Below the pieces are notes generated by a model. The model was not told the origin of the DNA and ran no database searches. It saw only the letters and a program-made list of their open reading frames with translations. DNA of 64,000 bases from Escherichia phage LinBro. Positions within the stretch are counted from its first letter, which is position 1. Each line of letters starts with the position of its first letter. Location: sequence record OR896830.1; one strand, given 5' to 3'. Shown here piece after piece: positions 59,476-59,607 of the stretch. A program made the position numbers and the translations under genes.

Positions 59476-59607
59476 CAGAAGACCGTTTACAGCAAAACTT
59501 AAACAATCTATTTCTCCGGTAAAGAAAAGGCGAAGGTTCGATTCCTTCACTCGGCAGATGTCGAGTTGGTGTAATGGTAGCACTTAAGATGATAAACAAC
59601 GGTCTGG
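59476..59607 (+). ncRNA. structured RNA element D with permuted tRNA-like module (candidate Y-RNA-like / YrlA-like)
   Basis: Closing stem AGACCGTT/AACGGTCT; inside, T-arm GAAGG-TTCGATT-CCTTC plus ACTCGGC, 4-nt linker, then GTCGAGT plus D-arm GTGT-AATGGTA-GCAC. Confidence 0.45.

What the first reader, a model, noticed from the sequence alone, without database searches (positions are those of the whole stretch)
59476..59607. Permuted tRNA-like module inside element D
Between the closing stem strands the order is T-arm (GAAGG-TTCGATT-CCTTC), acceptor 3' strand (ACTCGGC), a 4-nt linker, acceptor 5' strand (GTCGAGT, 7/7 pairs with one G-U), then a D-arm (GTGT-AATGGTA-GCAC). That is a tRNA whose acceptor stem is capped by a loop and whose anticodon arm is replaced by the long closing stem, the architecture described for YrlA-type Y RNAs. 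No CCA or anticodon arm is present, so it is not an ordinary tRNA gene.
Basis: partly seen in the sequence, partly recalled or inferred. Interest (0 to 1): 0.75.

Follow-up and report, generated by a model that had tools for sequence, protein, structure and literature searches.

The report
Phage Ro-partner RNA with tRNA mimic
A conserved ~127-base non-coding RNA in a Felix O1-like phage folds into a rearranged tRNA shape on a conserved stem; it is most likely the so-far unidentified RNA partner of the phage's Ro60-like protein, and its stem motif matches the unexplained 'Class I' RNAs of social amoebae.

Summary
Window 59480-59606 (+) folds as a 7-bp closing stem enclosing a T-arm, a 7-bp capped acceptor-like hairpin and a D-arm, in that permuted order. 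Chance expectation is 0.007 per window.

Three neighbouring hairpins (A-C) share D's scaffold: 7-bp stem, 3 nt, CAGCAA, an A-rich 3' side, stem, G. This scaffold recurs on the gene strand beside distant DUF2828 genes in phages of Proteobacteria, Firmicutes, Actinobacteria and Campylobacter. In several lineages it carries the same permuted tRNA module.

Covariation supports all four helices: 97.7% of cells paired, and 21 of 23 pairs changed on both sides.

Rfam's YrlA model misses the window copy and scores relatives at only 38-42 bits. The motif is CAGCAA, not YrlA's GNCGAA. I therefore call it a YrlA-like variant for a divergent Ro60 family.

Unexpectedly, the scaffold matches Dictyostelium Class I RNAs. 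A model built only from amoeba sequences finds 33 phage hairpins, all on the gene strand.

Binding and expression are untested.

The parts
57084..58499 (+). Gene for a 471-aa Ro60-like protein (Pfam DUF2828 + DUF7788/vWA with an intact MIDAS motif DxSxS; PHROG 850 'RNA-binding protein'). It is the homologue of Bas63 gp130.
58518..58638 (+). Two sigma-70-like promoter matches (58518-58546 and 58609-58638) ahead of the tRNA array. They would drive co-transcription of the tRNAs and elements A-D.
   Evidence: Consensus scan, 10 of 12 matches each. This is a consensus match only. No terminator-like site was found on the + strand between them and D.
58838..58905 (+). Element A: short scaffold hairpin (AGACCAA-TTA-CAGCAA...TTGGTCT-G) between tRNA-Glu and tRNA-Met. 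It has no tRNA module.
   Evidence: Model R1 scores it 30.0 bits. Rfam Dicty_Class_I scores it 19.7 bits. The amoeba-derived model R2 ranks it first in the region, E 0.005.
59005..59060 (+). Element B: short scaffold hairpin (AGACCGT-ATT-CAGCAA...ACGGTCT-G) between tRNA-Met and tRNA-Asn.
   Evidence: R1 32.3 bits. Rfam Dicty_Class_I 26.7 bits, E 0.083. R2 E 0.009.
59393..59461 (+). Element C: short scaffold hairpin (AGACCAA-ATA-CAGCAA...TTGGTCT-G).
   Evidence: R2 E 0.04.
59480..59606 (+). Element D (the finding): the scaffold carrying a permuted tRNA-like module. An extra outer 4-bp helix, 59473-59476 with 59607-59610, covaries among paralogues A-D.
   Evidence: MFE fold. R1 96.4 bits. Covariation across 29 members. 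245 of 250 phage records hold it full length.
59480..59495 (+). 5' strand of the closing stem (59480-59486), 3-nt linker TTA (59487-59489) and the invariant CAGCAA motif (59490-59495). This is the candidate binding site for the Ro60-like protein.
   Evidence: The motif is invariant in A-D. Beside distant DUF2828 genes the strict pattern (CAGCA required by design) gave 135 distinct hairpins; in them the following base is A in 119/135 and the linker is mostly UUA. It persists in GC-rich mycobacteriophage Lolly9.
59511..59527 (+). V stem-loop (TTTCT-CCGGTAA-AGAAA) upstream of the T-arm.
   Evidence: MFE fold. It is not conserved outside the Felix-like group, so support is weak.
59532..59548 (+). 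T-arm: GAAGG-TTCGATT-CCTTC, with G53, U54, U55, C56, R57, A58 and C61 all present.
   Evidence: Sequence. Four of its 5 pairs show changes on both sides across the family.
59549..59566 (+). Acceptor-like stem-loop (AS): ACTCGGC-AGAT-GTCGAGT, 7 bp capped by 4 nt, with no CCA.
   Evidence: All 7 pairs show compensatory changes. Within Ounavirinae: ACTCGGC/GTCGAGT, ACACG/CGTGT, ACCCTTC/GAAGGGT.
59567..59583 (+). U8-G9 and the D-arm GTGT-AATGGTA-GCAC (A14, A15, G18, G19, A21).
   Evidence: Sequence. All 4 pairs show changes on both sides across the family.
59599..59606 (+). 3' strand of the closing stem (ACGGTCT) plus the conserved unpaired G. An A-rich stretch precedes it.
   Evidence: 3' logo. 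Six of the 7 closing-stem pairs show changes on both sides.
59609..59750 (+). Element E: a neighbouring structured RNA closed by a ~24-bp stem. It contains a minimal AGACC-TTAAGCAA-GTCTGG hairpin. Its relationship to A-D is uncertain.
   Evidence: Fold z-score -5.74. A diverged copy with compensatory stem changes exists in tootiki and Moogle.

Best explanation
Element D is a Y-RNA-like (YrlA-type) non-coding RNA. It is made from the phage tRNA operon transcript and serves as a cognate ligand of the Ro60-like DUF2828 protein encoded just upstream.

Shown here:
- The RNA has a conserved, covarying structure: a terminal 7-bp stem, a 5'-side NNN-CAGCAA motif, an A-rich 3' side, and inside these a permuted tRNA-like domain (V, T-arm, capped acceptor-like hairpin, D-arm).
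- The stem/CAGCAA scaffold, with or without the tRNA module, is genetically linked to DUF2828 Ro60-like genes, on the same strand, across very distant phage lineages.

Inferred:
- The stem/CAGCAA module is the protein-binding site, analogous to the Ro-binding helix of Y RNAs.
- The tRNA-like domain presents a tRNA elbow. It could recruit tRNA-recognising host enzymes (RNase P, TruB, the CCA-adding enzyme, PNPase-type nucleases) to the Ro-like ring, or gate access to it, as proposed for YrlA.
- Elements A-C are YrlB-like partners that lack the tRNA domain.
- The resulting RNP would act in RNA quality control or degradation during infection. It may underlie the reported anti-Ppl counter-defence activity of the Bas63 homologue gp130.
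For: Structure:
- The MFE fold gives exactly these helices.
- On 29 family members, 97.7% of cells are paired, 21 of 23 pairs change on both sides, the covariation score is 0.844 against 0.21 in shuffles (0 of 500 reach it), and slid controls give about 42% paired.
- The acceptor-like stem is completely re-written in Mooglevirus relatives while the T- and D-loops stay fixed.

Protein:
- The only two PDB sequence hits of the family profile are Ro60, both weak and not significant (E 0.5-0.8, over the MIDAS segment).

Linkage:
- Model R1 found 159 hits in 946 kb, all on the gene strand.
- The strict motif gave 155 hits on the gene strand against 11 on the other, in 65 of 80 loci.
- Its density is 0.36 per kb within 1.5 kb of the gene, against 0.011 per kb background.
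- At least 25 loci have hairpins but no tRNA genes at all.
- Named examples: Lolly9 (three RNAs after its 'Ro-like RNA binding protein' gene, one with the tRNA module, then a terminator), Listeria List-36 (three RNAs just upstream; the locus also has RtcB), Staphylococcus SEP9 and Campylobacter CP81.

Similarity to YrlA:
- Relatives score 37.7-41.6 bits on RF02553, and the alignment covers the helix, T, AS and D core.
- The Levitt pair (tRNA positions 15 and 48) covaries in 8 of 11 seed members: G15:C48 or A15:U48 (read).

Literature:
- Bas63 gp130 is Ro60-like and counters Ppl. Its authors guessed that Y RNAs hide among the tRNAs (PMC11482910).
- Chen 2014 searched only genomes annotated with a TROVE domain.
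Against: - There is no expression, processing or binding data for this phage, and no transcriptome was found.
- Rfam's YrlA model does not hit the window copy even at E<=10 in a 156-nt search.
- The conserved motif is CAGCAA, not YrlA's GNCGAAN0-1G, so binding to a Ro-like ring is an analogy.
- In the window copy the Levitt position is A15 with C48 (A48 in relatives), which is not canonical.
- The fold-energy z-score of D alone is only -1.66.
- A natural variant (L009) has lost the 3' half of D by recombination between T-arms, so D is not essential.
- The loci were chosen through the DUF2828 gene, so the linkage test lacks a genome-wide control in phages without that gene.
- The covariation alignment was fitted to the model.
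Confidence: 0.7

Rival explanations
1. D is a decayed remnant of tRNA genes: the 3' half of one tRNA and the 5' half of the next (a tRNA dimer junction or pseudogene), with no function of its own.
For: - It sits in a tRNA array.
- Chen et al. warn that tandem tRNAs can mimic YrlA.
- Model R1 does give weak partial hits at real tRNA-tRNA junctions.
- About 10 of 22 distinct relatives still encode NCCA right after the acceptor 3' strand. This points to an origin from tandem copies of one tRNA.
Against: - The two acceptor strands pair 7/7 and covary across lineages.
- It does not overlap any ARAGORN tRNA.
- It is not a recent copy of any tRNA in the window.
- It is conserved full length in 245 of 250 records.
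- It is always framed by the stem/CAGCAA scaffold, including in loci without tRNA arrays.
Confidence: 0.03
2. D and A-C are cis-acting elements of the tRNA operon, such as processing or insulator hairpins for host RNases, or spacers that help tRNA folding. On this view their nearness to the Ro-like gene is incidental.
For: - In the window they lie 10-12 nt from flanking tRNAs and are probably co-transcribed.
- There is no direct binding evidence.
- D can be lost naturally.
Against: - The same scaffold, with invariant CAGCAA, occurs beside DUF2828 genes in at least 25 loci that have no tRNA genes.
- It also occurs in phages of hosts with very different RNase sets: Mycobacterium, Listeria, Staphylococcus, Campylobacter.
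- A sequence motif conserved across such hosts points to a phage-encoded reader.
Confidence: 0.12
3. D is a permuted, split tRNA-like gene. It would be cut in the acceptor loop (RNase P at G+1, trimming and CCA addition at the 3' strand) to give a nicked tRNA-like molecule with a free CCA end. That end could be charged, or used as a substrate or decoy for tRNA-directed enzymes or defence nucleases.
For: - M. smegmatis YrlA is cleaved by RNase P and receives CCA in vivo. A 7-bp acceptor stem is the stated determinant (Chen 2014), and D has 7 bp.
- Many relatives encode NCCA at the start of the AS loop.
Against: - The window copy has a 4-nt AGAT cap and no CCA.
- It has no anticodon arm, so it cannot decode and cannot act as a decoy for anticodon nucleases.
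- Salmonella YrlA is not cleaved.
- This idea is compatible with the best explanation rather than exclusive of it.
Confidence: 0.1
4. The region encodes a small protein. A 50-aa ORF lies on the minus strand at 59447-59599, and some GenBank records annotate 'hypothetical protein' here.
For: The ORF list. Several records annotate 'hypothetical protein (x2)' under the match.
Against: - It has a TTG start and is only 50 aa.
- Most records leave the region unannotated.
- Variation follows RNA base-pairing on the + strand rather than a reading frame.
- Indels in the AS loop and V region would shift the frame.
Confidence: 0.02

Closest known systems
YrlA (bacterial tRNA-like Y RNA; Rfam RF02553; Chen et al. 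2014, PMC4201824)
   Same: - Same permuted order: V, T-arm, acceptor-like stem-loop, D-arm, closed by a long stem joining the 5' and 3' ends.
- The tRNA tertiary-contact nucleotides are kept.
- It is encoded on the same strand within about 1 kb of a Ro60-type protein.
- It is accompanied by shorter partner RNAs without the full tRNA domain, like YrlB.
- Relatives give significant sub-threshold hits to RF02553.
   Different: - The window copy gives no RF02553 hit, and relatives reach only 38-42 bits against a gathering score of 69.
- The 5' motif is NNN-CAGCAA next to a 7-bp stem, not GNCGAAN0-1G.
- The partner protein is DUF2828/DUF7788, not Pfam TROVE.
- The RNA is embedded in a phage tRNA operon.
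Dictyostelium Class I RNAs (Rfam RF01414; Kjellin et al. 2021, PMC7919456)
   Same: - The scaffold is essentially the same: a terminal 6-7-bp stem starting with an invariant G:C, (C)UUACAGCAA directly after the 5' strand, a variable middle, an A-rich 3' side, and a 3' end ...C-U-G.
- Sizes are 50-70 nt for A-C.
- RF01414 is the only Rfam family hit at these hairpins in three phage lineages.
- A model built only from 30 amoeba sequences finds 33 phage hairpins on the gene strand and 1 hit on the other.
- It ranks A, B and C first in the window region.
- Some amoeba Class I RNAs also carry a T-arm: DpuR-22, asu_can_20, ppa_can_99.
   Different: - All scores are below Rfam's gathering score (41.5).
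- The phage linker is usually 3 nt against 4 in D. discoideum, although D. lacteum has 3-nt forms.
- Phage copies have an extra A-U pair outside the G:C.
- Promoters (DUSE) and organisms differ.
- The known amoeba binder is the RRM protein Rnp1A/CIBP.
- Whether Dictyostelium has a DUF2828 protein was not testable here.
- D itself is 127 nt, with a full tRNA-like insert.
Metazoan and Deinococcus Y RNAs with Ro60/Rsr (RF00019; Yrn1)
   Same: - Modular logic: a terminal helix with conserved unpaired nucleotides binds a ring-shaped HEAT-repeat + vWA protein.
- A variable module recruits effectors (PNPase in D. radiodurans).
- Several paralogous RNAs exist per genome.
   Different: - There is no GGUCCGA/bulged-C helix and no Rfam hit.
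- The protein shares only the fold (12-16% identity).
- No evidence yet for PNPase tethering.
Thermus phage phiLo Ro60 with Yrl1/Yrl2 (PMC12135203)
   Same: A phage-encoded Ro60 homologue with two or more adjacent phage-encoded Y-like RNAs. The phiLo protein is the best Foldseek PDB hit of the window protein (9kop).
   Different: phiLo's protein is a canonical TROVE protein. Its RNAs carry the CGAA motif in a stem-bulge-stem. No tRNA-like module is reported for them.
Circularly permuted tRNA genes (Cyanidioschyzon merolae) and two-piece/permuted tmRNA
   Same: The 3' half of a tRNA-like domain is encoded before the 5' half. Acceptor strands are joined by a loop that, in many relatives, still encodes NCCA.
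   Different: There is no anticodon arm, and no evidence of circularisation or of maturation into a decoding tRNA. There is no tag reading frame. A weak tmRNA_permuted hit lies elsewhere (59933-60116), not on D.

Membership tests
YrlA (RF02553 / Chen et al. 2014) | T-arm-like stem-loop with the conserved T-loop (UUCRANN, G53-C61) | tested here: met
   GAAGG-UUCGAUU-CCUUC at 59532-59548. The helix covaries in the family.
YrlA (RF02553 / Chen et al. 2014) | D-arm-like stem-loop with A14, R15, G18G19 and A21, preceded by U8 | tested here: met
   U-G-GUGU-AAUGGUA-GCAC at 59567-59583. All 4 pairs covary.
YrlA (RF02553 / Chen et al. 2014) | A stem-loop (AS) between the T and D arms at the position of the acceptor stem, giving the order T, AS, D | tested here: met
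   ACUCGGC-AGAU-GUCGAGU at 59549-59566. All 7 pairs show compensatory changes.
YrlA (RF02553 / Chen et al. 2014) | Levitt pair 15:48 that can form (G15:C48 or A15:U48) | tested here: not met
   The window copy has A15 with C48 (A48 in L004/L011). Eight of 11 seed relatives do have G15:C48 or A15:U48 (read).
YrlA (RF02553 / Chen et al. 2014) | GNCGAAN0-1G motif near the 5' end (the putative Ro60 contact) | tested here: not met
   The 5' region reads AGACCGU-UUA-CAGCAA. CAGCAA is the conserved motif in A-D and in relatives.
YrlA (RF02553 / Chen et al. 2014) | Score at or above the Rfam gathering threshold (69 bits) | tested here: not met
   No RF02553 hit on D at E<=10, even in a 156-nt search. 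Relatives score 40.9 (L075), 41.6 and 38.7 (L073) and 37.7 (Lolly9) bits.
YrlA (RF02553 / Chen et al. 2014) | Encoded within about 4 kb of, and on the same strand as, a Ro60 orthologue | tested here: inconclusive
   It lies 981 nt downstream, on the same strand, of a protein with the Ro60 fold. That protein is DUF2828/DUF7788 with no Pfam TROVE hit, so it is better called a paralogous family than an orthologue.
YrlA (RF02553 / Chen et al. 2014) | Bound by Ro60/Rsr in vivo; psi55 and dihydrouridine made by TruB and DusA | not testable with these tools
   Needs immunoprecipitation and modification mapping.
Dictyostelid Class I RNA (RF01414 / Kjellin et al. 2021) | A short stem joining the 5' and 3' ends, with a conserved 5' G paired to the C of a 3' CUG(U) | tested here: met
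   For A-D: (A)GACC.../...GGUC-U-G. G is invariant and the partner is C in 125/135 phage hairpins.
Dictyostelid Class I RNA (RF01414 / Kjellin et al. 2021) | The 11-nt motif CCUUACAGCAA adjacent to the 5' stem strand | tested here: inconclusive
   D reads GU-UUACAGCAA (9 of 11 identical). A has UUACAGCAA. B and C have AUUCAGCAA and AUACAGCAA. The linker is one nt shorter than in D. discoideum but equals that of D. lacteum dla_can_26/27.
Dictyostelid Class I RNA (RF01414 / Kjellin et al. 2021) | Covariance-model score (Rfam gathering 41.5 bits; Kjellin's candidate criterion is >=25 bits plus a stem) | tested here: not met
   RF01414 scores B 26.7, A 19.7 and D 12.8 bits. Only B passes the >=25 criterion, and none reaches 41.5. 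With my amoeba-derived model R2, 8 phage hairpins reach >=25 bits, while the window's A-C score 11.7-15.6.
Dictyostelid Class I RNA (RF01414 / Kjellin et al. 2021) | Length 42-65 nt; DUSE promoter about 60 nt upstream; found in Dictyostelia | tested here: not met
   D is 127 nt (A-C are 56-69 nt). The genome is a phage with sigma-70-like promoters.
Ro60 / TROVE protein family (for the neighbouring gene) | A ring of HEAT-like helical repeats followed by a vWA domain with a MIDAS motif | tested here: met
Ro60 / TROVE protein family (for the neighbouring gene) | Sequence membership (Pfam TROVE PF05731) | tested here: not met
   Only DUF7788 and DUF2828 are hit. The family profile against PDB gives Ro60 only at E 0.5-0.8.

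The most novel reading that the evidence does not exclude
The stem/CAGCAA hairpins are the same RNA class as the 'Class I' RNAs of dictyostelid social amoebae. Those RNAs have been regarded as unique to Dictyostelia and have no known function.

On this reading, both are the Y-RNA-like ligands of DUF2828-type Ro60 paralogues, a protein family found in phages, giant viruses and eukaryotes. Together they would form an ancient or horizontally spread RNP distinct from Ro60-Y RNA. Its RNA scaffold can carry mimic modules: a permuted tRNA domain in the window's element D, T-arms in DpuR-22, asu_can_20 and ppa_can_99, and an rRNA-like insert in DdR-66/67.

Evidence not excluding it, and favouring it:
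- A covariance model built only from amoeba sequences finds 33 phage hairpins, all on the gene strand next to DUF2828 genes, where about one hit is expected by chance.
- Rfam RF01414 is the only family hit at these hairpins in three lineages.

Untested: whether Dictyostelium encodes a DUF2828 protein, and whether the uncharacterised Class I pull-down protein DDB_G0281243 is one.
Probability: 0.4. Interest if true: 0.92.

Novelty: new variant of a known kind. Interest (0 to 1): 0.8.

Why it matters
Two recent experimental papers state that a phage Ro60-like protein must have Y-RNA partners but could not name them. One is on Bas63 gp130, which counters the Ppl defence system; the other is on Listeria phage CKA15_055.

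This analysis gives concrete candidates with coordinates. It also gives a defining motif and a covariance model that work across roughly 700 sequenced phages of four bacterial phyla. The question therefore becomes directly testable by RIP, EMSA, deletion of A-D and Ppl assays.

It also shows that YrlA-type tRNA mimicry is not tied to canonical TROVE proteins or to the GNCGAA motif.

If the link to Dictyostelium Class I RNAs holds, it would give the first mechanistic lead for a 20-year-old orphan RNA class, namely a Ro-like partner and a modular mimic design. It would also connect phage, giant-virus and eukaryotic RNPs.

Tried and rejected
- **Rfam, whole window and targeted.** No YrlA, Y_RNA or tmRNA hit on D, so filing it as a YrlA member was rejected.
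- **tRNA pseudogene or dimer junction.** Rejected because of covariation, no ARAGORN overlap and no similarity to the window's own tRNAs.
- **Minus-strand 50-aa ORF.** Rejected as spurious.
- **Thermodynamic significance of D alone.** Weak (z -1.66), so it was not used as evidence.
- **An inner 'anticodon-like' helix in the window copy (CUUAA/UUAAG or AUCU/AGAU).** There is no consistent support among Felix/Moogle relatives, so it is left unassigned.
- **Expression evidence.** No Felixounavirus transcriptome was found. The CKA15 Listeria study's most abundant non-coding region (26,236-26,727) maps about 0.6-1.5 kb upstream of the three hairpins, not onto them. It therefore cannot be claimed as support.
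- **Whether Dictyostelium has a DUF2828 protein.** Several routes failed. The afdb50 fold library was unavailable. Literature searches for DUF2828, UCP015417 and DDB_G0281243 gave nothing useful. Avesson 2011 is not held. The truncated proteome files in Kjellin's supplement gave only an unrelated vWA protein.
- **First MAFFT seed alignment (A4).** It mis-registered the ends, so it was replaced by the trimmed alignment A5.
- **Model R1.** It also reports tRNA-tRNA junctions at low scores, so only hits of at least about 38 bits were counted as module-bearing members.
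Full report
**Context.** The window is a Felix O1-like myophage (Felixounavirus; 95-97% identical to phages garuso, momo and others). Positions 58665-63571 hold 26 tRNA genes on the + strand. The finding lies in a 429-nt gap between tRNA-Asp (59251-59327) and tRNA-Lys (59757-59832).

**Observation.**
- T-arm GAAGG-TTCGATT-CCTTC (59532-59548)
- acceptor 3' strand ACTCGGC
- loop AGAT
- acceptor 5' strand GTCGAGT (7/7 pairs, one G-U)
- U8-G9
- D-arm GTGT-AATGGTA-GCAC (59569-59583)
- closing stem AGACCGT/ACGGTCT (59480-59486 with 59599-59605)

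The unconstrained MFE fold returns these same helices plus a V hairpin (59511-59527), both for the element alone and within the whole gap. The energy z-score of D alone is modest (-1.66), so I did not rely on thermodynamics. The composite T/acceptor/D pattern is expected 0.007 times per simulated 64-kb window and occurs once, on the + strand. ARAGORN and Rfam's tRNA model do not call it a tRNA. It is not a recent copy of any tRNA in the window.

**Conservation and covariation among close relatives.**
- D is full length in 245 of 250 matching phage records.
- Within Ounavirinae the T and D arms are fixed. The acceptor-like stem is re-written with full complementarity: ACTCGGC/GTCGAGT in Felix-like phages, ACACG/CGTGT in one Mooglevirus group, and ACCCTTC/GAAGGGT in Moogle, Michonne and HP1.
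- One natural variant (L009) has lost the 3' half of D, element E and most of tRNA-Lys by recombination between the two T-arms. D is therefore dispensable for viability.

**The neighbouring protein.**
- The gene at 57084-58499 (+) ends 981 nt upstream of D. It encodes a 471-aa protein with Pfam DUF2828 + DUF7788 and PHROG 850 'RNA-binding protein'.
- An AlphaFold model built on 33 homologues (pLDDT 87.8, pTM 0.87) matches Ro60 over its full length. The eight best Foldseek PDB hits are all Ro60/TROVE.
- The MIDAS residues are invariant.
- By sequence it is not a TROVE protein.
- Homologues occur in 709 phage records: Escherichia, Mycobacterium, Salmonella, Vibrio, Listeria, Staphylococcus, Campylobacter, Enterococcus, Bacillus and Aeromonas among others. 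Some are annotated 'Ro-like RNA binding protein'. They also occur in giant viruses.
- The PhageMaP preprint reports that the Bas63 homologue gp130 resembles Ro60 and counters the Ppl defence. [quoted passage not shown]
- A Listeria phage study makes a similar guess (PMC12282133).
- Neither paper identifies an RNA. Chen et al. 2014 searched only genomes annotated with TROVE.

**A shared scaffold.**
- D is one of four elements in the array with the same frame: CAGA-[AGACC(A/G)(A/T)]-NNN-CAGCAA ... [complement]-G.
- The four are A 58838-58905, B 59005-59060, C 59393-59461 and D 59480-59606. Only D carries the tRNA module.
- An outer 4-bp helix covaries among the four paralogues: UGAC/GUCA, UUGC/GCAA, GAGC/GCUC, UUAC/GUAA.

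**Distant loci.**
- I fetched 80 loci around DUF2828 homologues from viral contigs; 65 of them have only about 40% protein identity.
- A regex for the permuted module found it in L025, L037, L039/40, L070, L072, L073 (twice) and L075. All hits are on the gene strand and none overlaps an ARAGORN tRNA.
- Their flanks show the same frame: a 7-bp stem (W-G-N5), 3 nt, C(A/C)GCA(A/U/C), an A-rich 3' side, the stem and then G.

**Covariance model R1.**
- R1 was built from 11 such sequences with four helices.
- It gave 159 hits in 946 kb, all on the gene strand. Twenty-nine were strong hits, including new ones in L018, L053, L071, L072 and L073.
- On those 29 sequences, 97.7% of cells pair and 21 of 23 pairs change on both sides. 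The covariation score is 0.844 against 0.21 in shuffles (0 of 500), and slid controls give about 42% pairing.
- The alignment was fitted to the model, which inflates pairing somewhat. The margin is very large all the same.

**Strict scaffold pattern.**
- It gives 155 hits on the gene strand against 11 on the other, in 65 of 80 loci. By my count from the listing, 41 of the 65 distant loci have a hit within 600 nt of the gene.
- Its density is 0.36 per kb within 1.5 kb of the gene, against 0.011 per kb on the opposite strand.
- At least 25 loci have the hairpin but no tRNA gene. This argues against a role tied to tRNA operons.

**Named phages show the same arrangement.**
- Mycobacteriophage Lolly9 has three scaffold RNAs directly after its 'Ro-like RNA binding protein' gene. 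The middle one carries the tRNA module (R1 69.1 bits). A terminator follows.
- Listeria phage List-36 has three just upstream of the gene, in a locus that also encodes RtcB and a phosphohydrolase.
- Staphylococcus SEP9 has three downstream, and Campylobacter CP81 has two upstream.

**Relation to YrlA.**
- The window copy gives no RF02553 hit.
- Relatives score 37.7-41.6 bits, with E from 1e-5 to 2e-8, against a gathering score of 69. The alignments cover the inner helix, variable loop, T arm, AS, UA and D arm, but not the outer protein-binding stems.
- The Levitt pair covaries in 8 of 11 seed members but is non-canonical (A15/C48) in the window copy.
- About 10 of 22 distinct members encode NCCA right after the acceptor 3' strand. 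This suggests an origin from tandem copies of one tRNA, and possibly RNase P/CCA processing as shown for M. smegmatis YrlA. The window copy has a plain AGAU cap.
- Conclusion: it has the same design and probably the same kind of job as YrlA. It uses a different protein-binding motif and a different Ro60 subfamily, so it is a new variant rather than a member.

**Unexpected link to amoeba RNAs.**
- In targeted Rfam scans, the only family hitting the short hairpins was RF01414, Dictyostelium Class I RNA, always over the full model length. Scores were B 26.7 and A 19.7 bits, L073 29.3 and 20.2, and List-36 23.1 and 18.5.
- Class I RNAs are defined by a short terminal stem with an invariant 5' G, the 11-nt motif CCUUACAGCAA next to the 5' strand, a variable middle and a 3' CUGU. 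Their function is unknown and they were reported as unique to Dictyostelia (PMC7919456).
- The phage consensus is (A)G-N5-UUA-CAGCAA(A/C) ... A-rich ... N5-C-U-G.
- I took the published amoeba sequences and built model R2 from 30 short Class I RNAs of six species, specifying only the 6-bp stem. I then searched 877 kb of phage loci on both strands.
- That search gave 34 hits at E<=1: 33 on the gene strand and one on the other (E 0.61). The gene-strand hits are full model length except two (model positions 4-51), and those I compared coincide with the hairpins found independently. Eight scored >=25 bits, the authors' own candidate criterion.
- In the window region, R2's three best hits are exactly A, B and C, with E 0.005-0.04.
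- Several amoeba Class I RNAs carry tRNA-like pieces. DpuR-22 has GGGG-UUCGAAU-CCCC. asu_can_20 has a T-arm followed directly by a 9-bp hairpin. ppa_can_99 has a T-arm. The long variants carry an insert that, from memory, resembles large-subunit rRNA.
- I could not test whether Dictyostelium encodes a DUF2828 protein. One of the four proteins pulled down with Class I RNA DdR-21, DDB_G0281243, is of unknown function.

**Mechanism.**
- *Shown:* a conserved, covarying RNA with a permuted tRNA-like domain on a conserved stem/CAGCAA scaffold, and strand-specific genetic linkage of that scaffold to Ro60-fold DUF2828 genes across phyla.
- *Inferred:* the scaffold is the protein's binding site. The tRNA-like domain recruits tRNA-recognising enzymes, or gates the ring, as proposed for YrlA. 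A-C act like YrlB. The RNP works in RNA surveillance or decay during infection and may underlie the counter-defence reported for gp130.
- *Not shown:* expression, processing, binding and phenotype.

**Verdict.** The finding is confirmed and its interpretation supported. It is best described as a new variant of the Y RNA/YrlA kind, paired with a divergent Ro60 family. A credible and testable extension links it to an orphan eukaryotic RNA class.

Noticed in passing
window 59609-59750 (+): Element E lies directly after D. It is a ~142-nt RNA closed by a ~24-bp stem (fold z -5.74). Diverged copies with compensatory stem changes occur in phage tootiki and in Moogle. It contains a minimal hairpin AGACC-(C)UUUAGCAA-GGUCUG that resembles the scaffold motif. 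Its function is unknown.
   Followed up: partly
L009:8450-8600 (IMGVR_UViG_2706796742_000001): A natural deletion joins D's T-arm to the T-arm of tRNA-Lys. It removes the 3' half of D, element E and most of tRNA-Lys. This shows that T-arm repeats drive recombination in the array and that D is dispensable.
   Followed up: partly
window 59933-60237 (+): There are weak Rfam hits to tmRNA_permuted (59933-60116, 30.8 bits, E 0.0017; it overlaps tRNA-Ile) and to tmRNA (60048-60237, 15.9 bits). They lie in the unannotated gap between tRNA-Ile and tRNA-Arg, which also has a strong promoter match at 60006-60034. Another structured RNA may be here.
   Followed up: no
window 59337-59388 (+): Two further stable hairpins lie between tRNA-Asp and element C: GGGCU-AUUU-AGCCC, and a 38-nt imperfect hairpin. 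They lack the CAGCAA motif and their role is unknown.
   Followed up: no
Alignment A7 (e.g. L075:1330-1448, L014:8406-8523, L037:7947-8066, L018:5423-5554, L071:7470-7602): About 10 of 22 distinct module-bearing relatives encode N-CCA (GCCA, ACCA or CCCA) immediately after the 7-nt acceptor 3' strand. This is far more than chance. It hints at an origin from tandem tRNA copies, and possibly at RNase P/3'-end processing into a nicked tRNA-like domain. The window copy lacks it.
   Followed up: partly
Kjellin et al. 2021 supplement, file 48 (DpuR-22, asu_can_20, ppa_can_99; DdR-66/67, DpuR-27 to 30): Some dictyostelid Class I RNAs contain a canonical T-arm; in asu_can_20 an acceptor-like hairpin follows it. 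The long variants share an insert GGUGGGAG...GUGAAAUACCACC that, from memory, looks like a large-subunit rRNA segment. I did not see this noted in the passages of the paper that I read.
   Followed up: partly
L086:1-9455 (Listeria phage List-36, NC_024364.1 99879-109333): The Ro-like gene sits in an RNA-repair-like neighbourhood: tRNAs, a 'ribosome associated inhibitor A', a metal-dependent phosphohydrolase, the RtcB 'tRNA splicing ligase' and a tRNA amidotransferase. This recalls the Salmonella rsr-yrlBA-rtcBA operon.
   Followed up: no
L086:2380-2960: This unannotated ~580-nt region sits behind a strong promoter. It corresponds to CKA15_059-061, reported as the most abundant transcript of Listeria phage CKA15. 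It has no CAGCAA scaffold and is probably a different, unidentified structured RNA.
   Followed up: partly
window 59447-59599 (-) and GenBank records under hits H2, H21, H27, H39: Several deposited genomes annotate one or two 'hypothetical protein' CDSs across elements C and D. These are probably mis-annotations of non-coding RNA.
   Followed up: partly
L001:10839-11484 (phage garuso, MN850566.1): In garuso an HNH endonuclease gene and a small ORF are inserted between tRNA-Lys and tRNA-Ile, where the window has tRNA-Met. The tRNA array is thus a hot spot for homing-endonuclease insertion.
   Followed up: no
window 18226-18411 (+): This is the only strict-pattern scaffold hit outside the array. 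It spans 186 nt and is far from the Ro-like gene. It is probably a chance match, given the permissive long-range stem search.
   Followed up: no
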